Shown here piece after piece: positions 4,348 to 61,654 of a stretch of 64,000 nt of DNA. Location: UHGV virus genome UHGV-0311442; one strand, written 5' to 3'. This stretch comes from a virus. Position 1 is the first letter of the stretch. The number at the start of each line of letters is the position of its first letter. A program made the position numbers and the translations under genes. The notes beneath the pieces were generated by a model. That model saw nothing but the letters and a program-made list of their open reading frames with translations, was not told where the DNA came from and did no database searches.

Positions 4348-7300
4348 ATGGCTAAAAAAGGTAAAGATGATTTCGATGAAATCGATCTTGATAACATGGA
4401 CGACTGGGACGATTTTGATGAGCCCCCTCGTCAACAAGACCAATCGCGTAACCCGGTCATGGACACATTTCGTGCTGCCCGTAAGTCGGCGTTGTCGACT
4501 ATCTGGCCCGAAAACAAACGTGATCAGGTTATTTTAAAAGGGATGCCTAAACCTGCGGCAGAAGCCTACGAAGGCTATCAAAACGTTAAAGCTGCAGGTC
4601 AAGACATTCTGGCCCATACGAAAGACGAGATTGAAAAGACGTCTCGCGTCGTCAAGATGCAAGCGAGACAGTTAGGTCCAACACTGAAACGGTATTTACC
4701 GGAATCCGTAACACGGAAAATCGACAAGTGGGCACGTAACGATCAAATCGACTATGGGAATTACGATCCTAAACAAGCGATGATGGATCGTGAGCTGGAC
4801 AGCGTGTTCTCAGGCGCACCGCAAACAGCGGACCAGCAACGTGAGGCGCAAGAGGGGATGGTTGAAGACCGCTTGCGCGACACGATTAAGGACATGAAGT
4901 CCGACGCACTGTTCCAGACCGTAATCGGTATTGCAAAAGACGTCAACTTAACGACTAGCCTAAGTCGTGGCGTGTTGTTGAATGTTCAGCGTAAGCAGTT
5001 AGAGCTGCAATATCGGACGCTGTTTGCTTTGCAGGATATTGCGAAACTCAAACAAGACGAGTTTGCACGCAACACCCCGGCATTAGAAGCCATCGTTAAG
5101 AACACGGCACTACCCGACTACGCGAAGGAAGAGTTTTCTGAAATTCGTTGGGCTAATGTAAAACGTAAAGCTGCGGAGTGGATGAACCCCTTACACTACG
5201 CAGATAATTTCATTGGCCAGATTCGCGAAAACGCGAAGAAGAAAATCTCGAACATCTTTAGTGATGGTCGTGGGATTCTAGAACAAGTTCTAGGGATGGC
5301 TCAGGAAGATGACTTTGACATGTCGGACAGCTCATCGTTGTCTCCTGACCGTCGTAACACAAACTCGCGCAATAAAGCGGCAGGTTTTGCAGGTGGTTGG
5401 TTAGCAAAACGTCTCCTACAACCACAGATCGAGCGACTTCAGAACTGGACGCGTGGCGAGCTAGAGAAAAACCCAGAAGTCATGAAACGCCTACAGTTGG
5501 CGAAGTATGGCTTTGGAAATTTGTCGTCTATTTCTAACTCGGCAATAGCGGGAGAAACAAGCGGCCCGTTAGCTGATCTGTTTCGACTAATGCACGATTT
5601 GGGGCTAGTTAACCCGCTACGTCGCGAAACGTTAGCATTAGACGATCGCTCTGCGGAATCTCTTTCTGCTGCGGCGAAGTTCGATCGTAAAGCTTACCTT
5701 AGTATCACAGAAGTTATTCCGACGTTACTGTCCGAGATTAACAAATCTATTCGTCGTGGGTATGGCGAACACCACGATCAGGTTTATGACTTGACCACGC
5801 GTGGTATGGTCGATCGTAAGGTTATTGGCAATCGTGTACGTAAGGCCGTTGCTAATGACGATCAGCGCAAACGTTTACAGACGTACATCAACGACACTGT
5901 CGACTTTATCGATAAAGATAAAACGCTTGATAGGAAAACACGTCAAGCGTTAGCGGACTACATCGAGTCTCGTGCCTCAGAAGGGAAAGCGTTCGATGTA
6001 GGGTCTTTATTGAAAGACCCGATGCACATGTATCGTTACATGAACGCAAACGCTGTGGAAGCGATTCAGGGTGTTTTAGAAGCCCGTTCTGCGGAACTGG
6101 TTGGTGGACACCATGAACTGAGTAACGCGATTTCAAACAAAATCGCCGCTATCCAGTCAACGATTCGCGCACGACAGGACACTGTTGATGCTGCGTCTGT
6201 GATTTACGGCGAGAATGCACTTCGTGATTCCGGTATTTTTAAATACGATGCGAAGAAAGACATTTTCGAGGTCGATAAGGACATTAACGATCCCTATACG
6301 TTATTTAATGACCTGTCGATGGGTAAGACCCGCTCTGGACGTTCGTTAACCCGTGAGCAAGAGATTCAGCGTAAATTGCAAAACGGTTCTGCGCTGGGTG
6401 ATTACTTGCGACGGATGGGTGCAGGCGCAGAGCCGAGCTTTGAAGACAAAGAACTGTCCAATGTACGTGGCGGTGGAAAAGGAGGTCGTGGTCGCGGTTT
6501 AAGCGCACGCCAACTCGCTGCGGTACTTTATGGAGAGAAATCCACTAACTTTGTTGAACTGTTAAGCAGTCGTCCAGACACGAACGCCGGGTTGGAACAG
6601 CAATTCGACCGTTTGATTGATGCTGTACGTAAACAGCCCGAATCTAGCATCGTGCAAGACATCCTCAAACACGTTAAGAACATGGATGAGGAAGGTATTC
6701 TTCTAGCCAGTTTAGGCGGTAGTCGTGATGACGGTGACGAACCTGAAAGTTCGGGTGAATCAGGCCGTAAACGTCGTCGTAAGCGCAAACGTATTGTACT
6801 AGGCGAGACAGGTTTGTTACGTCGCTGGGCTGGGGTGCTTTGGGATACCGGTTCTGGTGTAGGACGGTTTGGTAAGAATCTGTTCCTACGTGGGAAAGAT
6901 CGCCTACAAGCATTAGGTGGTTTTATTCGTGGGAAATTCTCAGGCGGTTCCTCCGAAGGTCCTGGCGTATTTAGCCGACTGAAAGGGTTAGTAACTGGTA
7001 CATTATCGACGGGTTGGAATTCTGCTGTAGCTTTCGGTAAAGGCGTTTTAGGCGTTCGCGACATCTACGATGAACGTGGTAACGTCGTATTACAAGGAAG
7101 TCGTTTAGAAGCTGGGGAATATTACCAGGCTGACCCGAAAACTGAGAAGCTGATTCAACTTAAAACTCTCGACGATATTAAACTGGGACGTGACATCGTC
7201 GACGAAGCGGGTAATTTAATCTTAGCTGCTGCTGATTTGGCTGCCGCAGGTAAACTGCGTTTCTACAAAGGCGGTAAAGTTCAAGCGCTTTTCCAGTACA

Positions 7301-48802: not shown

Positions 48803-49288
48803 TTAGTATTTAGATTGTTCTACGTATTTCTTAACCAGGTAAGCGAATTCAGCAACACCGATATCACCGAACCAAATCAGGTAACCGGGGTCGATGTTGT
48901 AGTAATAGCCGACGAGTTTCTTGGTGTGTGGGTTGTATAGCGTTACGATGTATTCCCAACCACAAGCGTTAGCTTTACAACCGCCGCTTTCAATCCAGAT
49001 TTTGTTGTTGATATTTACCGGATACATGTTACCGCCAGGGCCATCCATGTAACCTTTAGAGCCGAACATACCATCCAGTCCCACAGGGTCTAGTGTTTTA
49101 TCAACAACGGCTTTAAACGACTTATCGGTATCGTACAAGTCGTTGATGTTTGGGCACGCATTTGGCTGACCTTCCCAAGCGTTTCCATCGCAGGTAAGCA
49201 ATTCGTCTACGGAGGCCGCATCTACAGTTGGCGTGGCACCGATAAACAAGAAAACCAGAAAGAACATCAGTGTATGTAAACGTTTCAT
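48803..49288 (-). CDS. Secreted protein, Ivy-like (inhibitor of lysozyme / lytic transglycosylase family) candidate
   Basis: Track ORF of 161 aa with signal MKRLHTLMFFLVFLFIGATPTVDA/AS. IWIESGGCKANACGWEYIVTLYNPHTKKLVGYYYNID...LIWFGDIG aligns by eye with E. coli Ivy YQVMSACKPHDCGSQRIAVMWSEKSNQMTGLFSTID...LTWLNVND. The loop His is replaced (CKANAC; nt ~48959-48985). Confidence 0.4.
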   Translation of the reverse strand: MKRLHTLMFFLVFLFIGATPTVDAASVDELLTCDGNAWEGQPNACPNINDLYDTDKSFKAVVDKTLDPVGLDGMFGSKGYMDGPGGNMYPVNINNKIWIESGGCKANACGWEYIVTLYNPHTKKLVGYYYNIDPGYLIWFGDIGVAEFAYLVKKYVEQSKY

Positions 49289-49306
49289 TGTAACTACTCC
49301 TTTAGA

Positions 49307-49699
49307 TTATTCGGCAGGACGATTTAAGGTAACGCGTCCGATTAATTCGGCGTTGTGAAAGAAGTCCACAGCGGTATAATTACCAACGGATAATGGGTGA
49401 ATACTAACTGACATTACTTTCGGTTGTTCGCAAGCAATATCGGTTAGACGTTGGTAGACTTGCGCACGGGTGTCAGCAATGAGTAACCCCGTACACGCTT
49501 CACCACGCACTAAACGATAAACTTGCAGTTTACCGAAACTGCGCATTAACGTAGGCGTCTCATCCGGGTTGATAATCGGTGAGTCAGGAGCCGGTTCGTA
49601 ATAGCGGACATCCGAATCACCGAAAGCATAAGTGCCAGTAATTCCGACCGCACAGAAAATAATGATAGTATAAAGTATAGTTCTGATATTCATTTTCAC
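49307..49699 (-). CDS. Secreted or membrane-anchored small protein
   Basis: Track ORF of 130 aa (GTG at 49699; alternative ATG at 49693). The N-terminus IRTILYTIIIFCAVGITGTYA/FG is hydrophobic and signal-like. Confidence 0.55.
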   Translation of the reverse strand: MKMNIRTILYTIIIFCAVGITGTYAFGDSDVRYYEPAPDSPIINPDETPTLMRSFGKLQVYRLVRGEACTGLLIADTRAQVYQRLTDIACEQPKVMSVSIHPLSVGNYTAVDFFHNAELIGRVTLNRPAE

Positions 49700-49721
49700 G
49701 CACTCTAAAAAAGATTAATAG

Positions 49722-50183
49722 TTATTTGTTAGGACGGGTGTGCCCACAGTTTTGGAAGAAAGTTTCAGATAAACGATCGCCTTCTACGGTAAAGTTAGCG
49801 GCATCGTTACCATTGATACTCACACTGAAAGTTTTGGCATTACCGATAGCATTAACGAAAGCAACCCAAGCGTGTTCTGCCTTGTCACTACCGTCCACGG
49901 TAGGGATGTTATAGGTTTTGCCGTTTACGACAATATCCATCGTGTTATCTTCAGCGTTAGTTGCACCTACGGGTTCCCCGTAATACCAAACCATGCGACC
50001 GTAAAATTTGCGATTCGCAGTTTCAGTGTCACAGTTGATAGACAGTCCGTTTCCGGCGGTGTCTTCAATTTCGTAAACTGCCTGGCCAGGGTTTTGTATT
50101 TGTTCCCAGCTGTTGATAGCGGCGTGTGCAGTATTGAAACCGATTACGAAAAGGGCGATTAAAAAGGAAGTGAAGATTTTCAT
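49722..50183 (-). CDS. Secreted small protein
   Basis: Track ORF of 153 aa with signal MKIFTSFLIALFVIGFNTAHA/AI and an ATG after ATAAAGGAGC. It is the first gene after promoter-like motif 50231-50257. Confidence 0.6.
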   Translation of the reverse strand: MKIFTSFLIALFVIGFNTAHAAINSWEQIQNPGQAVYEIEDTAGNGLSINCDTETANRKFYGRMVWYYGEPVGATNAEDNTMDIVVNGKTYNIPTVDGSDKAEHAWVAFVNAIGNAKTFSVSINGNDAANFTVEGDRLSETFFQNCGHTRPNK

Positions 50184-50230: not shown

Positions 50231-50257
50231 CTCACCTAAGTAATATATATCTGAAAT
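50231..50257 (-). promoter_or_regulatory. Promoter-like motif, class A (minus orientation: ATTTCAGATATATATTACTTAGGTGAG)
   Basis: Near-identical to 54517-54543. It lies directly downstream (minus sense) of terminator 50276-50308 and ~50 nt upstream of the ATG at 50183. The upstream flank is AT-rich. Confidence 0.5.
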
Positions 50258-50275
50258 TATTTTTAATATTAACGA

Positions 50276-50308
50276 ACAAAAAATAAAAGGTGGGGGTAAA
50301 CCCCCACC
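50276..50308 (-). terminator. Rho-independent terminator (minus strand)
   Basis: Stem ggtggggg/cccccacc with loop taaa. The minus strand continues ttttatttttt. Confidence 0.8.
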
Positions 50309-50312
50309 GATG

Positions 50313-50891
50313 TTATACATCGAACCGGTACTGCCGGGAGTTAATGAGGAACTCGGTATTCAGCTCAATCCATTCGAGTAAATCACCCAACGGTAATCGG
50401 TTTGGGTTTTCTAACTCAATAGACGCTACCGGATAAGAGTTTACTAATTCCGTAATTGCCTCAATACCCTCTTGCGTTCCGTCGTCTTCTAAGGTGATTG
50501 TAAACGGCATATCGGTACGATCCGCATTAGGATTGTACAAACTGACTTTCGTTGCTTGGACAAACGCAGTCAGGTCGTCACGTATAATGCGTGTATCAGG
50601 CGCTAGAACTACCCAGAGATGTTGTCCTGGCTGGAGTTTACGTTTTGCGTAGTTTAAGAACGGGTTAGCCGGTAAGCTTTCCAAACCACTGCAAATGTTC
50701 CGTAAATGAATCCCTCGTGGGTCTTTATAGTCCACGCTGAAGATTCCTACCGGTTCCTTCGCTGCCTGTTTTATCAGAAAGACCAATACCGTGTCCGCTC
50801 TTTCTGGTAAGGAAAGCTCTATTCCCTCAAGCTCCCCATCGACGAGGTTTTCCAACCAAACGTCTTTTCGCATTTCTATTAATCGGTACAC
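50313..50891 (-). CDS. Hypothetical protein
   Basis: Track ORF of 192 aa with a GTG start after GTGAGGTGG. It lacks the C-terminal GW...QLLF module of the four upstream genes. Confidence 0.55.
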   Translation of the reverse strand: MYRLIEMRKDVWLENLVDGELEGIELSLPERADTVLVFLIKQAAKEPVGIFSVDYKDPRGIHLRNICSGLESLPANPFLNYAKRKLQPGQHLWVVLAPDTRIIRDDLTAFVQATKVSLYNPNADRTDMPFTITLEDDGTQEGIEAITELVNSYPVASIELENPNRLPLGDLLEWIELNTEFLINSRQYRFDV

Positions 50892-50903
50892 GGTACCACC
50901 TCA

Positions 50904-51677
50904 CTATTGATTAAGTTTTACATCGGCAATAAACAGCAATTGTTTACCATGTTGCTGCACTTCTTTCCAACCTAGTTTCATAGCAGCGTCAACAACATCT
51001 AACATGCTGTAACGGGACATCAACGCGGTTGATTTTGTTCCTGACATTAAATAAAGCGGCTCATTAGGGCAACGGTCTCGAGCATCAGGAAGTTCTCGAA
51101 TAACCGCTGAGCCTTCGGGTGCGGTAACAACGTGAATCACGGTAAATGGTCTCTTATGCGTTAAATAGATACGAAATCCAACGTGTTCAGATTCATGAAA
51201 GATTTTCTTCACAACCACATCTTTTAGTGTTGTCTGAACATCATCCCCAGGTAATATCGTGGATTCACGAGAAACGAAACAACGACTATTTTCAATCGTG
51301 GAGAAATAATTACGTATCGGCAAACTGGCGTTATGATCGCGCAGTTTTTTGCTCAATAGATCGAAGTTCAGTTCTTTAACTTTTTCTAACCACTCTTTGG
51401 CTTGTTGAATGTAATAACTACCAACAGCGCGATAAGTTAATACCTTACCTGTGCTCACTTTCCAAAGCTTGATGCTTAGTGAATTTGGCTTATAGCGACG
51501 ATACTCACCCTGCGTATGGTTGATGCGCTCGTAACGCTCTACATCATCAACTGGTGCAGATTCGACCGATTGTAATTGCAGCGTACGATCTAATCTATCG
51601 GCAAATAGTAGTGATGATAGCGGGCCTTCGATCATATACGGTTCGGTTTTAAAGATATCGTCTAAATGGACTTTCAT
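50904..51677 (-). CDS. Member of the tandem paralog family (C-terminal GW...QLLF module)
   Basis: Track ORF of 257 aa. The N-terminus MKVHLDDIFKTE corresponds to MKELLDDIFTNT of 53511..54248. The C-terminus is LGWKEVQQHGKQLLFIADV. Confidence 0.6.
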   Translation of the reverse strand: MKVHLDDIFKTEPYMIEGPLSSLLFADRLDRTLQLQSVESAPVDDVERYERINHTQGEYRRYKPNSLSIKLWKVSTGKVLTYRAVGSYYIQQAKEWLEKVKELNFDLLSKKLRDHNASLPIRNYFSTIENSRCFVSRESTILPGDDVQTTLKDVVVKKIFHESEHVGFRIYLTHKRPFTVIHVVTAPEGSAVIRELPDARDRCPNEPLYLMSGTKSTALMSRYSMLDVVDAAMKLGWKEVQQHGKQLLFIADVKLNQ

Positions 51678-51692
51678 TTCTATTTCCTTCTT

Positions 51693-51718
51693 AACAAAAG
51701 CCGCGACTAAAGCGCGGC
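51693..51718 (-). terminator. Hairpin terminator (minus strand), weaker
   Basis: Stem gccgcg/cgcggc. The minus strand continues ttttgtt. Confidence 0.55.
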
Positions 51719-51744
51719 AGTTAGAGAAAGTGTAGTTTCACTTA

Positions 51745-52896
51745 TTAAAGGTCAGCAACAAACAGCAGCTGACTGCCGTACGGTTCGACAGATTTCCAAC
51801 CGTAATCTTTACCGATCGTCGTTAGATGGCCGGTATTTAACTTTTTGTCAACCATCCGCAGACGCATCATTAGCGTATTGGATTCTGCCGCATCGAGTAA
51901 CAACGCAGGTTCTTTTTCAGTGCGGTCATCCGCTTTCGGGAAGAAACTGTAATACTGACTTTTGGGCAGTTCGATTGTCAACGTATAGTTTTTCTTTGTA
52001 ATGAATAACGCCATCCCTTCGAAATTACAATCGAAACGATATTCCCAACCCGCCTCGGCTAAAACGTCTTTTAGCATTTCCATGACTTTAAGCTGGTTAA
52101 CGCTAGGCAGTCGGTAAGCTGCAAGGTTACTTGGAAATATGCGTATACCGTCGACGACACTATCGGTGGTTTCGTCAATAAGTTCAGGATAACGTTGCGA
52201 GAAAATATGATCGCTCTTGCTTTTCTCTTCGATGTCACGAATGAATTGGGCTATTTCGTCTCTTAAGCCAGACACTTGATTTTCTCCTTCGACTTCAATA
52301 ATCTGGTGGGGTTCGCCGCTAATTAAAATGTGGTAAACGATGTCGTCGGTAGAACGGTAAGTGAGTTTGATAGCTTTATCACTTAACATTTCGTAGCGGA
52401 AGAAACTTTCGTACCAAGTTGACCCGAAATCGTTTCGTGTAAGTTCCTGCTCAACTTTGATGGTTTTTGCTTCAAAACCAATTAACCCACTTAATAACGC
52501 GTGTTCTGGTTTAGTTAAAATGTTCGCACCGTGAAAGGGCACTTTCTCAAGCTGAAAACATAAATTACTGACTTTACCACTTGGGAAGACCTTAAACATA
52601 ATCTTCCGGCTGCTACTCTTTTCCCTAACAACGAGTTTACGGTAATTTAGTCCACAATTTGTGTAAACCGCGAACTTGTAACCTTCAATTTCTTCATCGT
52701 AAGTACAGACATCGACAGGTGCGATAATCTCATTGTATTCAGTAAGTACACAGCAGCCCAAGTTATAACCAAACAACTCACGTTGTAATGAAGATTCGAT
52801 GGTTAAGCTTGGTAGTGACCAAGTCCGATTATAGCATCTGTCCATCAGTTCTTTTAGGATCTTGGCATGTCCTGGCTTAGAAATAATATTTCGCAT
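51745..52896 (-). CDS. Member of the tandem paralog family; carries two copies of the GW...LF module
   Basis: Track ORF of 383 aa. The C-terminus is YGWKSVEPYGSQLLFVADL, and an internal copy reads AGWEYRFDCNFEGMALFITK. Confidence 0.6.
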   Translation of the reverse strand: MRNIISKPGHAKILKELMDRCYNRTWSLPSLTIESSLQRELFGYNLGCCVLTEYNEIIAPVDVCTYDEEIEGYKFAVYTNCGLNYRKLVVREKSSSRKIMFKVFPSGKVSNLCFQLEKVPFHGANILTKPEHALLSGLIGFEAKTIKVEQELTRNDFGSTWYESFFRYEMLSDKAIKLTYRSTDDIVYHILISGEPHQIIEVEGENQVSGLRDEIAQFIRDIEEKSKSDHIFSQRYPELIDETTDSVVDGIRIFPSNLAAYRLPSVNQLKVMEMLKDVLAEAGWEYRFDCNFEGMALFITKKNYTLTIELPKSQYYSFFPKADDRTEKEPALLLDAAESNTLMMRLRMVDKKLNTGHLTTIGKDYGWKSVEPYGSQLLFVADL

Positions 52897-52926
52897 TTTT
52901 ACTCTCCTTTAGGGTTTTTTTGTTAC

Positions 52927-53481
52927 TTAAGCAGGGTAAGCTAAAAACAACAACTGCTGGCCGAGTTTACGTACAGTATACCAACCGTGGGCTTTAGCGA
53001 CCGCGATCAACGTTTCCCAGTCATCAACATCACACTGCTCATTCCGAAGTCTTGTAAAGAGTGCCTCGGCTTCGCTTTGGTTTAATAACTTACCTGGGTT
53101 GTCTGGGGTGCAGTCAGTAGGGGTTGGAAAGAAAGTATACTGACGCGCTAGGAGAAAATCGACCAGATACTTGGTATTTTCTTTATAAACCAGCGTGGAA
53201 GACTTTCCTTCGTGGAAGAAGCTGCCTGTTTTCCAAGCGCTATCCCCCAGTAAGCTCTGAAGGTAATCTGTAAAGCCCGTTCTGAAAGGGATATGGTTTT
53301 TACGTGTGATGTTACGACGCAGCGGGGTTTCCTCTACAGCTTGTACACCCACCCCTACTATCATCGCACCTGGCTGAATAATGCTATTGGTCAGTACGGT
53401 ATAAGGACGGACAAAGAAATGTTCGCCTACGCCTTTTTCAAGGGTTTGGATAATTTCATTTTTCAGTTCAGTTTGAAACAT
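52927..53481 (-). CDS. Member of the tandem paralog family
   Basis: Track ORF of 184 aa. The C-terminus is HGWYTVRKLGQQLLFLAYPA. Confidence 0.6.
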   Translation of the reverse strand: MFQTELKNEIIQTLEKGVGEHFFVRPYTVLTNSIIQPGAMIVGVGVQAVEETPLRRNITRKNHIPFRTGFTDYLQSLLGDSAWKTGSFFHEGKSSTLVYKENTKYLVDFLLARQYTFFPTPTDCTPDNPGKLLNQSEAEALFTRLRNEQCDVDDWETLIAVAKAHGWYTVRKLGQQLLFLAYPA

Positions 53482-53510
53482 GGTATATTCTCCTTTTTCG
53501 GTTTTCTTAA

Positions 53511-54248
53511 TTACGCGGTTTTAATTAACAGCAGATAGTCCTTCGTAATCTCAGCACAACCCCACCCTCTCATCGCGGCGATTTTACGAAGATCAATTTT
53601 CTCGTGATATCTCAATAAGGGATCGCCTGAGTTAATCTCAACCAGGTGTGTGGCTTTAGAAATCGTTTCTACATCAGGGATCTGTTTTGCTAAGTCGGAT
53701 GCAATTAACTCGATGATACGGTATCCCTCTAACACAGAAACATAGATGCGCAAACCATATAGCGTGCCTTCGTCTTCTAATGGACAAAGATCGATGCCGG
53801 GTCCAAGCAGTGATAACTCGACGTTATCGGGAAGGTTTTCTGCATTTCGGAGTAACCCTATCCCATTTCTAAACAGAGGGAAGTAAGAGAATAGTGGTGG
53901 TAAAGCCCAACCGTTCCCAATAAGCACATCAGCGATACTCGTAGGTGTGTTCGCAAGAAGACGAATGTGGTCAGCCACAACTTCAAGTTCGGCGTCACTG
54001 ATCAACTTATAGATTAACATGACACTGGTTTCGGTATTAATAACAAAGAAGACGCGGTTGGCGTAACTGCCTATCACGTATTCGTCAATCATACAGTCGA
54101 TAACGTCACTGTCTGGATAATCTTCAGGTTTAATTGTTCCAGCATCGATTAACTTAGCAGGTTGCGATTGTTTTATTAGTTCGTTAACCACCGTAGAAGA
54201 AAGTTCTAAACTGGTGTTGGTAAAGATATCGTCTAATAATTCTTTCAT
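53511..54248 (-). CDS. Member of the tandem paralog family (most divergent C-terminus)
   Basis: Track ORF of 245 aa. The C-terminus is RGWGCAEITKDYLLLIKTA, and the N-terminus matches 50904..51677. Confidence 0.6.
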   Translation of the reverse strand: MKELLDDIFTNTSLELSSTVVNELIKQSQPAKLIDAGTIKPEDYPDSDVIDCMIDEYVIGSYANRVFFVINTETSVMLIYKLISDAELEVVADHIRLLANTPTSIADVLIGNGWALPPLFSYFPLFRNGIGLLRNAENLPDNVELSLLGPGIDLCPLEDEGTLYGLRIYVSVLEGYRIIELIASDLAKQIPDVETISKATHLVEINSGDPLLRYHEKIDLRKIAAMRGWGCAEITKDYLLLIKTA

Positions 54249-54344
54249 GATTTACTCGCTAATCCCAATGAAGGGAAGGCTATTATTATGGATTGTAAAA
54301 GAGGTATAAGGAAGTCACTACGTTCCTCTGGGAAGAGTATGTCG

Positions 54345-54382
54345 GTATACTCCGTATACCTCCGCTATTTATATCCGTATAC
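54345..54382. repeat. Three copies of C(C/G)GTATAC (palindromic GTATAC cores at 54345-50, 54354-59 and 54377-82)
   Basis: Read directly from the sequence, in the 319-bp non-coding region between divergent genes. Candidate operator array. Confidence 0.6.
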
Positions 54383-54388
54383 ATAATG

Positions 54389-54402
54389 CCCCCTACCCCC
54401 TA
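54389..54402. repeat. Tandem heptamer CCCCCTA x2
   Basis: Read directly from the sequence (ccccctaccccctacc). Confidence 0.7.
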
Positions 54403-54487
54403 CCGGTATCCCGAGTAGCAGAATAAAGGGACATAATGTAATTTTTAGTAACCTTTAACGAAAGGTACTAAAAGGGTAACGTGTCCG

Positions 54488-54516
54488 TAGGGACTGAACT
54501 GGTACTTCAGTCCCTA
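54488..54516 (-). other. 11-bp hairpin (tagggactgaa/ttcagtcccta) immediately downstream (minus sense) of promoter-like motif 54517-54543
   Basis: Read directly from the sequence. It would form the 5' end of a minus-strand transcript. Confidence 0.55.
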
Positions 54517-54543
54517 TTCACTTAAGTAAAATATATCTGAAAT
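54517..54543 (-). promoter_or_regulatory. Promoter-like motif, class A (minus orientation: ATTTCAGATATATTTTACTTAAGTGAA)
   Basis: Near-identical to 50231-50257. It points toward the paralog array but lies ~270 nt upstream of its first ATG (54248). Confidence 0.45.
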
Positions 54544-54568
54544 CAATTCCGATCTAAGGAACGTCCCG

Positions 54569-55534: not shown

Positions 55535-55740
55535 TTCCCCTTTTTCTTACGTTGTTTTTATATATTGTGACCTGACGTTGGTAAAACTTTTTATCAACAC
55601 TTTTCTTAAACCCATCGTTTAGTTAAGCAGGCCACTTTTTTCGCGCACTCTACTCCTCCCTACGGGGAGGAGCTATCTTATGCTTCGGTTGTAACACACG
55701 TCGGTCTTAGACCACCTTCCTTTTGAAATGGAGAGCTGTT

Positions 55741-55950
55741 ATGTCTATTAAAGAGTTCTCTTCTGCTGAGCATATTCCAGAAGAGTTTAAGAAAATCGGT
55801 AACGTTAGCGCCTTCGGCGATACCGTTGATCATGTAACTGGTAAGCTGGCTGCTGAAGCCGAAAAAATTGGCGGCGACGCATTCAAAGTTATCGGTATTT
55901 CCGGCAACAACAAACTGCACGGTAACGCGATTGTCTACAAAAAAGACTAA
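55741..55950 (+). CDS. DUF1471 (YdgH/BhsA/McbA-like) small protein lacking a signal peptide
   Basis: The track ORF starts at a TTG at 55723. The ATG at 55741 follows GGAGAGCTGTT. KKIGNVSAFGDTVDHVTGKLAAEAEKIGGDAFKVIGISGNNKLHGNAIVYKK matches the enterobacterial BhsA/YhcN-family core pattern (IG.VS..G...S.......LA.KA...GA....I.S.......L.G.A..YK). Confidence 0.6.
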   Translation: MSIKEFSSAEHIPEEFKKIGNVSAFGDTVDHVTGKLAAEAEKIGGDAFKVIGISGNNKLHGNAIVYKKD

Positions 55951-57331: not shown

Positions 57332-60300
57332 ATGGCTGTCGTCCTAGACCCACACTTCAAAAAACCGGGGAATAAAATAACCGGTGAAGCGGTCGCCGTC
57401 TTTGGTACGAAATACCGAATGTTGGTACCTGCCCACGCCCCTTTTTTCACCACATCCCTGGTGGTCAAGAGCGGCGGCAAAACACTGACCATAGGCGACG
57501 ATTACGTTATTACGCACCCGTACGAGACCGGTATGTTGCGCACAGCCTATCTCATTCACGGGATGATTTGGATTGTTAATGACAAATACAAATCGAATTT
57601 TACGGTAGATTACCACGCCGTTGGTTGTGGTCAGGCTACCCAACAACAGATTACCGCAGAACGCGAACTCAATAAAGATAAATACCCGTCTGCGTGTCAG
57701 TGGGACACCGTCATCGGGGACGTTTACTTTCCACCGGTCGATATCCAGTTCGATTGGGAGAATTGGAAAGGTGAACTGGAATTAATGCAGGCTATTGCTG
57801 GATTAGGCGATTCGTTAGGGGAAGTCGTGAGTCGGCTTAACCCCATCGCACGCAATACCCTGGATTTAGAATACCGTGCTAATAGCAAGGTTATCACTTC
57901 CGAGCAGTATGCCGTATACGACAATAAAGGTGGCTTCACCTACAACACTGCCCGTCATCGTTATAGCTTGAGTTATAAAACTGCAACCTTTAACGACTAC
58001 GCCCTGTCAGTGAAACACAGAATTCCTGCTATTCTGCCAGACATGACGAAATTGAATCCAAACGAACAGATCGATTGGATGCTCTGTTATGCTAACGGCG
58101 GTGCAAGTATTCTACGGCTGCAGCTAAAACAGCGCAAAATCTCACTGGTCTTAACGGTCGCTATTGGTAGCGGTTCAACAAACTACGATTATACGTTAAT
58201 CAACGGCTTAACTGACGATGAGTTAAAAAACGATATCGATTTTAGTGTAACCCGACAACCCGGAAACGGTGTTTACGTCATCGTAGTAAAAACAAATAAA
58301 CAGACCATGGATTACACATTCAATGTCGATACGCCGCCTGATGAGTTCTCGGCAGGGTATTCGAAAACGGATGTTGCTAAATGGTTGAAGTTTAAAACGA
58401 ACATTAATTTAAACTGGTATGCGGCCGAAAACGATTATATTCAAATTCGTTCTTTACCCGGCGCACCAGAACCTGACATCGATAACGATGTTTACCAGTT
58501 AATAGTCAAATACCATCAGTTAGTTGAGCAGCTGTATCGTAACGCGCCTGCACACGAACACGTTACACGTAAGGACAACCCGCACACCGATACGTGGGGT
58601 CCGATCCGTGCGTTAGAGCTGAATGGTATTGCGACAGATGCCGCGTTAGCTTACGGGAAGACGAAACAGCAGTTAACGGATTATGTTAATGCTAAGTACC
58701 CAACACAAGCAACGTTAACCGCACAGAAAAAACTGCTTCGTGAATCGCCGAGCAAGAACGTTAACGGCACGATTACCACACTTCCGGGTTTTACTTCGTT
58801 CACGACGGAAGTTGATCCGGTCTCGATGTCGAAATACGTGAGTCCTTATTTTAGCGAAAGCTATGTTAGTAGTGGTCACAGATATCACGGCGCGCTTCGT
58901 TATACAGGAGCGAAAAGCGGTTTCAGTGCTAACTTTAATGCAGTGCCTGCCAACCTGCAAGATATTGACTTTATTGTTACTGGACGTAAAACAGCGTCTG
59001 GTAATGAAGCGGTCGGTAGGGTTGGTTTACGTTTCTACGAAAATCCTGGTAGTAACTCCGGTAAGTACGTAGAGATTACCGGTGAAGTCTGGTCCGGTAC
59101 TCTTACTATCGAACTGGCGTTGCACGGTTACGGTAGTCCGGTACCGGCAGTTCGGTATATTTCACAAGCTCCTAACCCGGCAATACCGGATGGGGATTTT
59201 ACGCTACGTTTTCAACTGAAGCGTACAGGGAATGTGTTTGACGTCGTTATTACCGTAAACAGTAAAACGTATAGCGGTAGGATTAACTTCAATAACATGG
59301 ACGCTGCGTTAGAAGCATTAGAGAATCAGCACCACTTTAAATCGCTGATCAATAATGTTGCCGACGCCGTTACCATTAGTTCGCAAAACAAAGGTAACAC
59401 GGTTACCATTAAGAAAGCACCGGATGTTGTTGACGAGACACGTTTAGGTGCCCAGTTTGTTGTTGATCCGAAATCCATCAAGTTTATTGGCCAAGGTTCA
59501 ACTGATGTTAACGTGGCTAACAACCCCGTAACGTTCCAAGCAGGTACTAACCAGCTTGTGCTATACCCCGATGACCGAGGATTGTTGTGGCGTGGTAAAA
59601 AACTCTTAGACCCCACCACCGTAGCCCCGTATCTGCCAGGCAATACCGCAGGTGGCACAGGTTTATTCTACGCAAGTTCGACAACAACGGTTACGATCAC
59701 CGGTAGCGGGATAAAAGCCTCGCCGTTCGTAGCGACCTTTATTCTTCCTACCGCGACCGATACAACAGCTCTGGCAGCTTGGCAGTTGACCGATGAGTTC
59801 GGTACCGCTGAAAACCTTGCAGCAACGCCAGCACTGATTGAAAAACTCGATGCGGAGTTCACCGGTAAGTTAGTTGCAGTTAAATCGTACATTAACGACA
59901 TGCAACTTACCAGCTCGGTTACTATCGATAAGATTACCTTTGGTTTAGGTAACGTTGCGAATACGCCTGATGTCGATTTACCGATTTCTACAGCACAACG
60001 TGCGGAGTTAGATAAATACTCGCCTAAAGTTCACCAACACCCGTTTACCGCTTTTGGTACAGGGAACGCAACCACAGCGCAACGTGGTCTGATTAAATTT
60101 GGTCTGGATGTGGATGATGCGACTTTAGCACTCGATGGGAGTGTGGTAATGGCGCAGACTTCCCAGATTGAAAAATTGGAGCGCGCTGTCAGCGGTGTTG
60201 ACTCGGAGGCACGTCTTGACATTATACGTTTTGGTGAGTCTGGTAACGACTTAATAGACGTTACGGTCAAAGACAAAATTCTGGTCACGCTTCCAGCTTC

Positions 60301-61654
60301 AACGTATTTTATCGGTGGTGAAACATACGACGTTCCGTTGATGACGATTAACGTCAGTGAACGTTTTCCGAAATTGAATACAGAAATCTACGCAGGGATT
60401 TTTGTTGATATTGTTGACAACAAAGCGAAGTATATTGTCCACGACAGCTACAGTCAGGCTGAAACGGATACCATGACGCGTGTAGGGTTGATTGGTGTTA
60501 ACGACATTTCTGAGGTGTTCGTTACGGAGATGCGTAATGTCACACGGTTGGGCGATTTCCGTGAACTGAAAGATCATAAAGCCGATGACAACGCACACAT
60601 TCAACGCTCCGCGTCACGTGCAGCGCTTGGGTTAGCTAACTTAACCGTAGGTGCGCCTTGCTGGGCTTCTGGACTCCAGGCAGTAGTACGCGGTGAAGCA
60701 GATTGGCGTTATGTTGTCGATGGGCAGTATAAAGCCTTAGACGGGGTGAAATACGACCAGCTCGCATCCAAGTGGATTTTTGACGCGAAAGGGGTAAGCG
60801 ATAACCTGCACGGGTTTATCCACAGCATGTTCCCAGCTTTTAAGAACGCAGGAATGCGGGTAAGTTGGGAAACAGAAAGTAACGCAAAAACCGGTACGGT
60901 GCTAGAAACTGTTTTAGGATGCTGGAAAAACACCGACGGCGAGTTTATGCGGTTGTCGTTACTTATCACTCGTGGTTATCGTTTAACTGACAGCAACGGT
61001 GAATATTGTTACGCAGGGTTCGGTTTGAACTTCGGTAGCGGGAAATCGGTAGTGTTAGGTTTCACACCAACGAAGCGTGTTACGCCTGCACCGTGGAATA
61101 CGTTACAACCTGACGTAACGTTTACCCACACCCGTGCTGCAAATAACGCAATAACGTTTAACGCAACATTGACCTTAGCGGGCACTACGTATACCATCGT
61201 GGTGTTTTTATCTGCGACTGATAAATACGTAAGTTGCACGGCAGCAGGGGGAGCTACGCAGAAAATCCCTCTAACTGACCGTTTAACTGGGTTCAATATC
61301 GCACCTATCGTTAACGATCCGTATACCCCTATTTACTACGGTTTAGGGGGACTTTATGAGGATGAAGTTCGTGCCAACATCCGTTCTACGGCAGATAGCG
61401 CAACCGCGAATAAAGTCTATGGTACGTTGTTAGACTATATTAGCAACTATTCCTCATTAAATCGTGTGCGCGTTATGGAATTGACCGGTGTCAGTTCAGA
61501 CCCCGAAACGCTTAATGCGTTAGTGGCAACTGAATTTAATAACAACCTGGCGGATTACGCTGCGTTACCGATACCTCCTTATCTTAACAAGGAGCGCGTA
61601 ATGTCGTTTATCGACACCAACAATAAAGTGCAGGCGGTAATCATTCGCGATTAA
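57332..61654 (+). CDS. Large tail fibre / baseplate-fibre protein
   Basis: Track ORF of 1440 aa with an ATG after AGGAG. Tail-fibre hallmarks: ITFGLGNVANTPDVDLPIS and ATTAQRGLIKFG (cf. the LGLGNVxNTxDxxKPVS and ATxxxxGxxxLA motifs common in myovirus fibres). The composition is beta-rich (T/N/G/V). Confidence 0.6.
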   Translation: MAVVLDPHFKKPGNKITGEAVAVFGTKYRMLVPAHAPFFTTSLVVKSGGKTLTIGDDYVITHPYETGMLRTAYLIHGMIWIVNDKYKSNFTVDYHAVGCGQATQQQITAERELNKDKYPSACQWDTVIGDVYFPPVDIQFDWENWKGELELMQAIAGLGDSLGEVVSRLNPIARNTLDLEYRANSKVITSEQYAVYDNKGGFTYNTARHRYSLSYKTATFNDYALSVKHRIPAILPDMTKLNPNEQIDWMLCYANGGASILRLQLKQRKISLVLTVAIGSGSTNYDYTLINGLTDDELKNDIDFSVTRQPGNGVYVIVVKTNKQTMDYTFNVDTPPDEFSAGYSKTDVAKWLKFKTNINLNWYAAENDYIQIRSLPGAPEPDIDNDVYQLIVKYHQLVEQLYRNAPAHEHVTRKDNPHTDTWGPIRALELNGIATDAALAYGKTKQQLTDYVNAKYPTQATLTAQKKLLRESPSKNVNGTITTLPGFTSFTTEVDPVSMSKYVSPYFSESYVSSGHRYHGALRYTGAKSGFSANFNAVPANLQDIDFIVTGRKTASGNEAVGRVGLRFYENPGSNSGKYVEITGEVWSGTLTIELALHGYGSPVPAVRYISQAPNPAIPDGDFTLRFQLKRTGNVFDVVITVNSKTYSGRINFNNMDAALEALENQHHFKSLINNVADAVTISSQNKGNTVTIKKAPDVVDETRLGAQFVVDPKSIKFIGQGSTDVNVANNPVTFQAGTNQLVLYPDDRGLLWRGKKLLDPTTVAPYLPGNTAGGTGLFYASSTTTVTITGSGIKASPFVATFILPTATDTTALAAWQLTDEFGTAENLAATPALIEKLDAEFTGKLVAVKSYINDMQLTSSVTIDKITFGLGNVANTPDVDLPISTAQRAELDKYSPKVHQHPFTAFGTGNATTAQRGLIKFGLDVDDATLALDGSVVMAQTSQIEKLERAVSGVDSEARLDIIRFGESGNDLIDVTVKDKILVTLPASTYFIGGETYDVPLMTINVSERFPKLNTEIYAGIFVDIVDNKAKYIVHDSYSQAETDTMTRVGLIGVNDISEVFVTEMRNVTRLGDFRELKDHKADDNAHIQRSASRAALGLANLTVGAPCWASGLQAVVRGEADWRYVVDGQYKALDGVKYDQLASKWIFDAKGVSDNLHGFIHSMFPAFKNAGMRVSWETESNAKTGTVLETVLGCWKNTDGEFMRLSLLITRGYRLTDSNGEYCYAGFGLNFGSGKSVVLGFTPTKRVTPAPWNTLQPDVTFTHTRAANNAITFNATLTLAGTTYTIVVFLSATDKYVSCTAAGGATQKIPLTDRLTGFNIAPIVNDPYTPIYYGLGGLYEDEVRANIRSTADSATANKVYGTLLDYISNYSSLNRVRVMELTGVSSDPETLNALVATEFNNNLADYAALPIPPYLNKERVMSFIDTNNKVQAVIIRD

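What the first reader, a model, noticed from the sequence alone, without database searches (positions are those of the whole stretch)
50904..54248. Array of four tandem paralogs with variable bodies and a conserved C-terminal GW...G.QLLF(I/V/L)A module
Four consecutive minus-strand genes (257, 383, 184 and 245 aa) end with related sequences:
- LGWKEVQQHGKQLLFIADV
- YGWKSVEPYGSQLLFVADL
- HGWYTVRKLGQQLLFLAYPA
- RGWGCAEITKDYLLLIKTA

The first and last members also share the N-terminus MK(V/E)(H/L)LDDIF. The 383-aa member contains a second internal copy of the module (AGWEYRFDCNFEGMALFITK). The bodies between these anchors are highly divergent in length and sequence.

A constant terminal module with a diversified body is the pattern of polymorphic effector, immunity or anti-defence families. 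The array sits downstream of the class A promoter-like motif and the unusual 319-bp leader. I recognise no family.
Basis: seen in the sequence. Interest (0 to 1): 0.65.

Follow-up and report, generated by a model that had tools for sequence, protein, structure and literature searches.

The report
Swappable accessory-gene array in jumbo phage
Four neighbouring genes of an uncultured ~225 kb jumbo phage belong to a small, uncharacterised, phage-only protein family that joins a constant ~70-residue tail domain to fast-changing, exchangeable front parts, a pattern expected of proteins that interact with the host, although their function is still unproven.

Summary
The four minus-strand ORFs (257, 383, 184 and 245 aa) and the quoted C-terminal strings are exactly as described. 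Three of them (A257, B383, C184) share a statistically solid domain. D245 is a much more diverged, probable member. The claimed internal second copy in B383 is only marginal. The bodies are not all unrelated: C184 equals the C-terminal half of B383, and A257 and D245 are weakly collinear.

The window is an SPN3US/CR5/Asesino-type jumbo phage. Those phages carry one such gene in the same slot, and SPN3US gp175 is absent from the 86-protein virion proteome. The domain occurs in only about 47 clusters among 1.84 billion proteins, and all traced members are from phages. It has no Pfam, NCBIfam or PADLOC match, and the models have no convincing fold match.

Within the lineage, D, C and the N-domain of B are exchanged as cassettes between otherwise 97-100% identical genomes. 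The exchanged region is bounded by an invariant 135-nt block and a domain boundary in B. An early-type promoter motif precedes the array.

Best reading: an early, non-virion, polymorphic host-interaction (probably counter-defence) locus. The polymorphism is shown; the function is inferred.

The parts
53511..54248 (-). D245: first gene of the array, the most polymorphic member and a probable diverged family member. Compact alpha/beta protein.
   Evidence: ORF. 83 clusters at 50-96% identity, at least 5 allele classes, minimum pairwise identity 40%. AF2 model pLDDT 87, pTM 0.83. No fold match. Weak full-length collinearity with A.
53514..53681 (-). C-terminal region of D245 (residues ~190-245) carrying vestiges of the family domain: IPD190-192, DP209-210, GW228-229, LLLI239-242.
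   Evidence: hhalign vs family profile P=6e-4, 0/200 shuffles reach it. D-family invariant residues fall on the motif positions. HMM E<0.1 for 6/82 alleles, none in the reversed control.
52927..53481 (-). C184: mid-domain plus C-terminal module. Equivalent to the C-terminal half of B383.
   Evidence: B-C hhalign P=1e-12 over 171 columns. Two deep allele types at about 45% identity.
52930..53145 (-). C-terminal family domain of C184 (last 72 aa).
   Evidence: HMM E=9e-34; alignments.
51745..52896 (-). B383: three-part protein. Variable N-domain (1-~205), mid-domain shared with C184 (~206-311), C-terminal module (312-383).
   Evidence: AF2 model pLDDT 76. Conservation profile. The recombination breakpoint lies at about codon 214.
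52282..52896 (-). N-domain of B383 (residues 1-205), part of the exchanged cassette.
   Evidence: L014 vs L015 DNA identity is 27-57% up to about codon 214, then 87-100%.
51748..51963 (-). C-terminal family domain of B383 (last 72 aa).
   Evidence: HMM E=1e-34. Predicted beta-alpha-alpha-beta-beta: E331-334, H336-349, H355-363, E367-373, E376-381.
50904..51677 (-). A257: the most conserved member and positional counterpart of SPN3US gp175, Asesino gp195 and CR5 gp165.
   Evidence: BLASTP to gp175 1e-11 and to gp195 2e-7. Synteny. 73-98% identity within the lineage.
50907..51122 (-). C-terminal family domain of A257 (last 72 aa).
   Evidence: HMM E=1e-28. Hits PHROGs 26772, 33648, 24489 and 18480.
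54523..54538 (-). Early-type promoter-like motif AGATATATTTTACTTA upstream of the array.
   Evidence: Only 2 matches in 64 kb, 0.1 expected. The same motif precedes the module gene in the CR5-like lineage and occurs in Asesino. It resembles the AR9 virion-RNAP early consensus AAATATATATTAT-(6N)-G (PMC5312081).
54300..54434 (-). Invariant 135-nt non-coding block in the leader; left boundary of the exchanged cassette.
   Evidence: 96-100% identical in all relatives, although the adjacent D is 45-96% identical. It is an identity island between L014 and L015. RNA fold z=-2.8. No Rfam family.
51700..51718 (-). Terminator-like hairpin in the B-A gap, separating a D-C-B unit from an A-E unit.
   Evidence: Pattern scan.
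50289..50308 (-). Strong terminator-like hairpin (GGTGGGGGTTTACCCCCACC + T-run) after E192, ending the A-E unit.
   Evidence: Pattern scan. It is followed by the second copy of the promoter motif at 50237-50252.
50313..50891 (-). E192: the gene that follows A257 after a 12-bp gap, in the SPN3US gp176 slot. Not a family member.
   Evidence: phrog_20879, E=3e-33. No module.

Best explanation
The array is a lineage-specific expansion (one gene to four) of a small phage-only protein family. The family's defining part is a ~70-residue C-terminal domain: [IL]PD..DR[ST].N[DE]P..L[LM]S, helix, variable linker, helix, GW..V...G.QLLF.

Shown here:
- A257, B383 and C184 carry this domain. D245 is a probable, strongly diverged member.
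- The genes occupy a conserved slot beside the baseplate genes of SPN3US/CR5/Asesino-type jumbo phages.
- They are real genes under purifying selection, but they replace amino acids 5-10 times faster than their neighbours.
- D, C and the N-domain of B are exchanged as independent cassettes between otherwise near-identical genomes. The exchanged stretch is bounded by an invariant 135-nt upstream block and a domain boundary in B.

Inferred:
- The proteins are made early, from a virion-RNA-polymerase-type promoter, and stay in the infected cell rather than in the virion.
- The constant domain supplies a shared activity. This is most likely docking to one conserved partner or self-association, because the domain also exists alone as a 72-100 aa protein.
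- The exchangeable bodies supply specificity for variable host factors.

The most likely role is therefore a polymorphic host-interaction or counter-defence locus kept diverse by selection from different hosts.
For: - Domain significance.
- Full domain definition from 45 clusters.
- Stand-alone 72-103 aa versions.
- All traced members are in phage contigs or jumbo phages.
- Same slot in other lineages, with a single copy there.
- Array order conserved in all relatives.
- dN/dS is 0.11-0.41 for the array against 0.02-0.09 for flanking genes.
- L014 vs L015: gp171-like 100%, baseplate 99%, A 100%, E 97%, but D 49%, C 45%, B 59%. Alleles assort independently across genomes.
- Breakpoints lie at the invariant block and at B codon ~214.
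- Bodies across the family form at least 14 unlinked groups, with mosaicism.
- SPN3US gp175 is absent from the 86-protein virion proteome that includes gp167-173.
- The early-type promoter motif occurs only twice in the window, flanking this operon, and is conserved in front of the CR5-type gene.
- The proteins have no hydrophobic N-termini, while the next genes downstream do.
Against: - There is no functional evidence. No similarity to any characterised anti-defence, toxin, immunity or regulatory protein by sequence or by fold.
- Gene-wide dN/dS is below 1, and no site-level test for positive selection was run.
- The hypervariability could reflect a recombination hot spot with relaxed constraint rather than host-driven selection.
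- Early timing rests on similarity of one motif to a promoter consensus from a distant jumbo phage (AR9). There are no expression data for this clade.
- Non-virion status is by proxy. SPN3US gp175 shares only the C-terminal domain with A257, so packaging of A-D themselves is untested.
- D245's membership is not rigorous.
Confidence: 0.5

Rival explanations
1. Tail-fibre or baseplate assembly chaperones, or accessory tail proteins, that co-evolve with the receptor-binding proteins encoded next door.
For: The array lies directly beside baseplate and fibre genes: gp171-like, the phrog_3216 baseplate protein and the 1440-aa fibre-like gene. Fibre chaperones are typically polymorphic and often absent from virions (own knowledge).
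Against: - There is no co-variation. L014 and L015 have 92-96% identical fibre proteins and 99-100% identical baseplate proteins, but D, C and B are 45-59% identical.
- The array is on the opposite strand, behind an early-type promoter motif.
- In Centimanus, PhiEaH1 and the stand-alone cases the domain gene sits in non-tail neighbourhoods.
- There is no Pfam hit to tail-assembly families.
Confidence: 0.08
2. Superinfection-exclusion or inter-phage competition factors: the variable bodies target competing phages rather than host defences.
For: The same evolutionary signature as the main model. The downstream neighbours are small secreted proteins, including YfjT-like ones, that could act at the envelope.
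Against: The array proteins have no signal peptides or membrane segments. Nothing distinguishes this model from counter-defence with the present data.
Confidence: 0.15
3. DNA- or RNA-binding regulators: the C-terminal domain is a winged-helix-like nucleic-acid-binding module and the bodies are variable sensor or effector parts.
For: The predicted element order is beta-alpha-alpha-beta-beta, with a helix ending in GW followed by a hairpin. One stand-alone member gives a sub-threshold hit to the TBPIP/Hop2 winged helix (E=0.009).
Against: - Only 1 of 23 members gives that hit, and there is no recurrent weak hit.
- The linker between the two helices varies from about 10 to 50 aa, which is unlike a helix-turn-helix.
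Confidence: 0.1
4. Packaged internal or ejection proteins, comparable to the polymorphic internal-protein loci of T4-type phages, delivered with the DNA to neutralise host nucleases.
For: It is a tandem polymorphic array with a constant terminal element. A and D also share an N-terminal MK..LDDIF. Jumbo phages of this group package many ejection proteins (PMC5694885).
Against: - SPN3US gp175 was not detected in virions, while low-abundance neighbours such as gp172 and gp173 were.
- The shared N-terminus of D is a confidently modelled helix inside a compact fold, not a free targeting peptide.
- No A-x-E type protease site lies near the N-termini (read from the sequence).
Confidence: 0.07
5. A neutral recombination hot spot of dispensable genes: the diversity reflects frequent illegitimate or homologous exchange and relaxed constraint, with no specific host-directed function.
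For: Recombination boundaries are sharp. dN/dS is higher than in the neighbours but below 1. Copy number varies from one to four between clades.
Against: - All four genes are intact in every relative examined.
- dN/dS of 0.1-0.4 shows continuing selection on each allele.
- The C-terminal domain is conserved across genera and in stand-alone form.
- The slot is retained across at least three genera.
Confidence: 0.1

Closest known systems
SPN3US gp175, Erwinia phage Asesino gp195 and Cronobacter phage CR5 gp165 (PHROGs 33648, 24489, 26772, 18480; all 'unknown function')
   Same: They have the same ~70-aa C-terminal domain. They occupy the same slot after the gp171-like, gp172-like and baseplate genes. 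Their bodies are unrelated or mosaic.
   Different: Those phages have a single copy. The window lineage has three clear copies plus one diverged copy, and it lacks the gp174/gp194 gene. None of these proteins has been characterised.
Internal-protein (IP) hypervariable loci of T4-type phages, for example IPI*, which blocks the GmrSD restriction enzyme (own knowledge, not tested here)
   Same: Both are tandem arrays of small, fast-diverging, strain-variable genes that share one short constant terminal element, in a large virulent myovirus. That locus has an arms-race role against host nucleases.
   Different: In T4 the constant element is an N-terminal capsid-targeting peptide that is cleaved off, and the proteins are packaged. 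Here it is a folded C-terminal domain that also exists alone, and the SPN3US counterpart is not in the virion.
Polymorphic toxin and immunity systems (Rhs, CDI; SUKH/SMI1 immunity proteins)
   Same: Both combine a constant module with swappable variable modules, with cassette-like exchange at domain boundaries.
   Different: The polarity is reversed, because here the constant part is C-terminal. There is no toxin, SUKH or immunity domain by Pfam, NCBIfam or PADLOC and no fold match. The context is phage cytoplasmic, with no secretion signals.
Phage anti-defence or accessory 'islands' of early genes
   Same: It is an early-type promoter island inside a structural region, made of small genes of unknown function that vary greatly between near-identical genomes. 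A stand-alone family member lies beside a DNA methyltransferase and a Bro-N gene.
   Different: No member matches a known anti-defence protein. A shared domain across the island's genes, with domain-level cassette boundaries, is not a usual feature.

Membership tests
gp175/gp195-type C-terminal domain family (PHROGs 26772, 33648, 24489, 18480) | About 70-aa domain with [IL]PD..DR[ST].N[DE]P..L[LM]S ... GW..V...G.QLLF at or near the C-terminus | tested here: met
   A257, B383 and C184 give HMM E 1e-28 to 1e-35. PHROG hits for A and B. They were recovered in the exhaustive profile search.
gp175/gp195-type C-terminal domain family (PHROGs 26772, 33648, 24489, 18480) | The same domain in D245 | tested here: inconclusive
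   E=4.5 against the narrow HMM. The last 24 residues match the family profile at P=6e-4, with 0/200 shuffles reaching the score. 6/82 alleles reach E<0.1 against none in the reversed control. The first half of the motif is present only as vestiges, with a ~9-residue insertion.
gp175/gp195-type C-terminal domain family (PHROGs 26772, 33648, 24489, 18480) | Syntenic slot downstream of the baseplate or spike gene, divergently oriented (SPN3US/CR5/Asesino clade) | tested here: met
gp175/gp195-type C-terminal domain family (PHROGs 26772, 33648, 24489, 18480) | Not a virion component | not testable with these tools
   Known only by proxy: SPN3US gp175 is absent from the 86 virion proteins. There is no proteome for this lineage.
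SUKH / SMI1-KNR4 immunity proteins | Match to SUKH-superfamily profiles or the SUKH alpha/beta fold | tested here: not met
Known anti-phage-defence or anti-defence protein families (PADLOC models) | Profile match | tested here: not met
   The only hit is a 13-bit chance-level match of B383 to DpdF.
T4-type internal proteins | Conserved N-terminal capsid-targeting peptide removed by the prohead protease, and presence in the head | tested here: not met
   The constant element is a C-terminal folded domain. The N-terminus of D is a confident helix within the fold. The SPN3US counterpart is not in the virion. Direct proteomics of this phage was not possible.
Tail-fibre assembly chaperones | Co-variation with the adjacent receptor-binding protein, or a profile match to tail-assembly families | tested here: not met
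   The fibre-like protein is 92-96% identical where D, C and B are 45-59% identical. No Pfam hit.
Winged-helix DNA-binding domains | Profile or fold match to wHTH families, with a tight helix-turn-helix | tested here: inconclusive

The most novel reading that the evidence does not exclude
The ~70-aa domain is a docking or adaptor module, so far seen only in phages and in sequenced genomes only in jumbo phages. It brings interchangeable specificity domains to one common hub. The locus would then be a purpose-built cassette system: the invariant 135-nt leader block and the conserved module-coding 3' ends serve as recombination anchors, which lets a phage population shuffle host-targeting heads onto a constant base. 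That would be a new, modular counter-defence architecture in nucleus-forming phages, built on a fold with no solved relative.
Probability: 0.25. Interest if true: 0.8.

Novelty: new variant of a known kind. Interest (0 to 1): 0.58.

Why it matters
- Jumbo, nucleus-forming phages are candidates for therapy and models for how phages evade host immunity, yet most of their early non-virion genes have no known function.
- This locus offers a defined, rare domain family (about 47 clusters in 1.84 billion proteins) with no solved or predicted structural relative.
- It occupies a conserved genomic slot with one to four copies.
- It shows unusually clean natural cassette exchange between near-identical genomes. 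That kind of variation points to the molecular interface between phage and host.
- The phage is present in many Salmonella, Shigella and E. coli isolate assemblies, so allele classes can be correlated directly with host genotype.
- SPN3US, which has an amber-mutant genetic system, carries a single-copy version suitable for knock-out tests.

Tried and rejected
- DNA-level search of the phage collection found nothing. tblastn with D245 and with B383 also found nothing.
- Pfam, NCBIfam and PADLOC gave no usable hits for any member or for stand-alone domains.
- A profile search of PDB sequences gave nothing below E=0.37.
- Foldseek against BFVD with the D245 model gave nothing. A few very weak sliding-clamp hits (TM <0.2) were judged to be noise.
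- The gp174/gp194 gene is not hidden in the 319-bp leader. There is no Rfam family and no tRNA there.
- Literature hits for 'SPN3US gp175' all refer to the phiKZ protease or to PhiPA3 RecA, not to this protein. No transcriptome for the SPN3US clade was found.
- The broad family alignment was too diverse for the search for related loci. The narrower one retrieved only the same lineage.
- The QLLF in the last strand resembles the bacterial beta-clamp-binding motif QL[SD]LF (own memory). It lies in a predicted buried beta-strand, so I rate this a low-probability lead and did not test it.
Full report
**What is there.** The four minus-strand ORFs exist exactly as described: A257 at 50904-51677, B383 at 51745-52896, C184 at 52927-53481 and D245 at 53511-54248. 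The quoted terminal strings are correct. Gaps between the genes are 29, 30 and 67 bp, and a fifth gene, E192 (50313-50891), follows A after 12 bp. The surrounding genes identify the window as a phiKZ-like jumbo phage of the SPN3US/Asesino/CR5 group. The 420-aa neighbour is 77-80% identical to SPN3US gp171 and Asesino gp191, and the 321-aa neighbour is a baseplate protein (phrog_3216). No phage in the collection matches at DNA level. Synteny shows that SPN3US has one gene (gp175, 412 aa), Asesino one (gp195, 223 aa) and CR5 one (gp165) where the window has four.

**Is the similarity real?**
- For A, B and C it clearly is. BLASTP E-values are 1e-5 to 1e-11 and profile-profile P-values are 3e-5 to 1e-12. 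An HMM of the module finds only these three among the window's ORFs, plus gp175 and gp195 in the SPN3US and Asesino loci (1,061 ORFs scanned in all).
The whole of C184 aligns with B383 211-381. The conserved unit is about 70 aa: [IL]PD..DR[ST].N[DE]P..L[LM]S, a helix, a linker of about 10-50 aa, a second helix, then GW..V...G.QLLF.
- D245 is different. It scores at noise level against the narrow HMM. Its last 24 residues do align in register with the broad family profile (P=6e-4, 0 of 200 column shuffles reach the score). A minority of D alleles reach E<0.1 while none of the reversed controls does. The residues invariant in the D family (IPD, DP, W, L.L) fall on the signature positions.
- A and D share MK..LDDIF and align collinearly over their full length, but weakly (P=1.8e-4). 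I regard D as a probable, strongly diverged member.
- The internal 'second copy' in B383 is marginal. Only helix+GW aligns, and 2 and 6 of 200 shuffles reach that score.

**Structure.**
- AlphaFold2 gave a usable multi-domain model for B383 (pLDDT 76) and a confident compact model for D245 (pLDDT 87, pTM 0.83).
- Both end in the same element order, beta-alpha-alpha-beta-beta. Their N-terminal ~185 residues also show the same order of 14 helices and strands. This suggests B is a D/A-like N-domain joined to a C-like mid-domain plus module. I could not superpose the models, so this is an inference.
- No Pfam, NCBIfam or PADLOC family matches, and a profile search of PDB sequences is empty. SUKH/SMI1 is therefore not supported.

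**Distribution.**
- An exhaustive profile search of 1.84 billion representative proteins found only 48 clusters, one of them a false positive.
- The domain is normally C-terminal in proteins of 120-412 aa. It also occurs alone as proteins of 72-103 aa, so it is an autonomous unit.
- Every traced member lies in a phage contig or a sequenced jumbo phage of 218-307 kb: SPN3US-like phages, Erwinia phages, CR5, the Klebsiella ~300 kb group, PhiEaH1 and Shewanella SXP01.
- Outside the window's lineage there is always a single copy.
- Outside the SPN3US/CR5/Asesino clade the gene lies in other neighbourhoods: a tRNA cluster, next to phoH, or beside a methyltransferase and a Bro-N gene.
- With the domain removed, the bodies fall into at least 14 BLAST-unlinked groups. 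In CR5-like phages they are mosaics of shared segments attached to an almost identical C-terminal domain.

**Evolution within the lineage.**
- The window's phage has many close relatives: ~225 kb contigs in Salmonella, Shigella and E. coli assemblies and in metagenomes. All carry D-C-B-A in the same order.
- The array proteins are 45-96% identical between genomes whose flanking structural proteins are 91-99% identical.
- dN/dS is 0.11-0.41 for the array against 0.02-0.09 for the flanks.
- D has at least five allele classes, with pairwise identity down to 40%.
- The clearest case is L014 vs L015. gp171-like is 100% identical, baseplate 99%, A 100%, E 97% and the fibre-like protein 92-96%, but D is 49%, C 45% and B 59%.
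- Alleles of D, C and B assort independently across genomes.
- Sliding DNA identity places the left boundary at an invariant 135-nt block in the leader. The right boundary is at about codon 214 of B, which is the predicted domain boundary. Local identity peaks sit at the module-coding 3' ends of D and C.
- This is domain-level cassette exchange, and it does not track the adjacent fibre gene.

**Expression and location.**
- SPN3US gp175 is absent from the 86-protein virion proteome, which does contain gp167-173, including low-abundance gp172 and gp173 (PMC5694885 Suppl. Table 1). This is evidence by proxy.
- The motif AGATATAT(A/T)TTACTTA occurs only twice in the 64-kb window, against 0.1 expected: once upstream of D and once just after E192's terminator.
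- The same motif precedes the module gene of CR5-like phages and occurs in Asesino. It resembles the virion-RNA-polymerase early consensus of jumbo phage AR9 (PMC5312081).
- Terminator-like hairpins lie in the B-A gap and after E192. This suggests two units, D-C-B and A-E.

**Interpretation.** The polymorphic architecture is shown. The function is inferred: early, intracellular, non-virion proteins in which a constant domain provides a shared activity and exchangeable bodies provide specificity. The most plausible target is variable host factors such as defence systems. The rivals are a tail-fibre chaperone role, superinfection exclusion, a nucleic-acid-binding regulator, packaged internal proteins, and a neutral recombination hot spot. 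Each is weighed in the report sections. The chaperone and internal-protein models are disfavoured by tests done here.

**Novelty.** The family is already clustered in PHROGs as 'unknown function', so the genes are not new as sequences. What appears to be undescribed:
- the domain definition;
- its rarity and its restriction to phages;
- the lack of any structural relative;
- the expansion to an array;
- the mapped cassette exchange with an invariant non-coding boundary.

I file it as a new variant of a known kind (hypervariable phage accessory or arms-race loci), with moderate to high interest.

Noticed in passing
window 54300-54434 (minus strand): A 135-nt non-coding block in the leader is 96-100% identical in all relatives, although neighbouring genes have dS of 0.1-1 and the adjacent D gene is 45-96% identical. 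It folds as two stem-loop domains (z=-2.8). It contains a GGTATAC-NNN-GTATACC hairpin with a variable loop and a GGTAGGGGGTAGGGGG run. There is no Rfam match. It could be a regulatory RNA, an operator or a recombination anchor.
   Followed up: partly
window ~54490-54516 (minus strand): Just downstream of the promoter-like motif there is a hairpin, AGGGACTGAAGTACCAGTTCAGTCCCT. Relatives show a compensatory change in it (GGGACTGAA/TTCAGTCCC vs GGGGCTGAA/TTCAGCCCC).
   Followed up: partly
window ~54476; L003 ~5140-5220, L004, L005, L006 (alignment A3): Relatives carry about 95 bp more here. The extra sequence encodes a conserved 25-26 aa micro-ORF (for example MSTEKKSGLDEVIVLFKRYNPAIPR) that diverges at nucleotide level but is kept at protein level. 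The window has lost most of it by deletion.
   Followed up: partly
window 54249-54568: The 105-aa gene found here in SPN3US (gp174) and Asesino (gp194) has no remnant in the window (tblastn).
   Followed up: yes
window 48803-50183 (minus strand): Three consecutive small proteins (161, 130 and 153 aa) have signal-peptide-like N-termini. Relatives' copies of the 153-aa one match Pfam YfjT (PF27224). They lie behind the second copy of the early-type promoter motif (50237-50252). Their number varies between relatives.
   Followed up: no
window 55723-55950 (+): The small gene between gp171-like and the baseplate gene corresponds to SPN3US gp172, a 7-kDa virion protein. In relatives it matches Pfam YdgH_BhsA-like (PF07338), a bacterial periplasmic stress-protein family.
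   Followed up: no
whole window; L003-L008, L014-L021: This ~225 kb jumbo-phage lineage appears on contigs in many assemblies labelled Salmonella enterica, Shigella flexneri or sonnei and E. coli, and in metagenomes. It has no DNA-level match in the 50,697-record phage collection, so it looks widespread but uncultured, possibly carried by isolates.
   Followed up: partly
window 57332-61654 (+): The 1440-aa fibre-like protein is itself mosaic between relatives (75-99% identity per 120-aa segment), but independently of the array alleles.
   Followed up: partly
P0043 (D245 homologue, 81% identity): One public record names this protein 'AAA domain protein'. Nothing here supports that name: there is no Pfam hit and the fold is unrelated.
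   Followed up: no
L024 7956-8696 (Erwinia phage PhiEaH1): In PhiEaH1 the family domain sits at the N-terminus (residues ~16-98) of a 246-aa protein next to phoH. This is the reverse of the usual C-terminal position. P0170 has the same arrangement.
   Followed up: no
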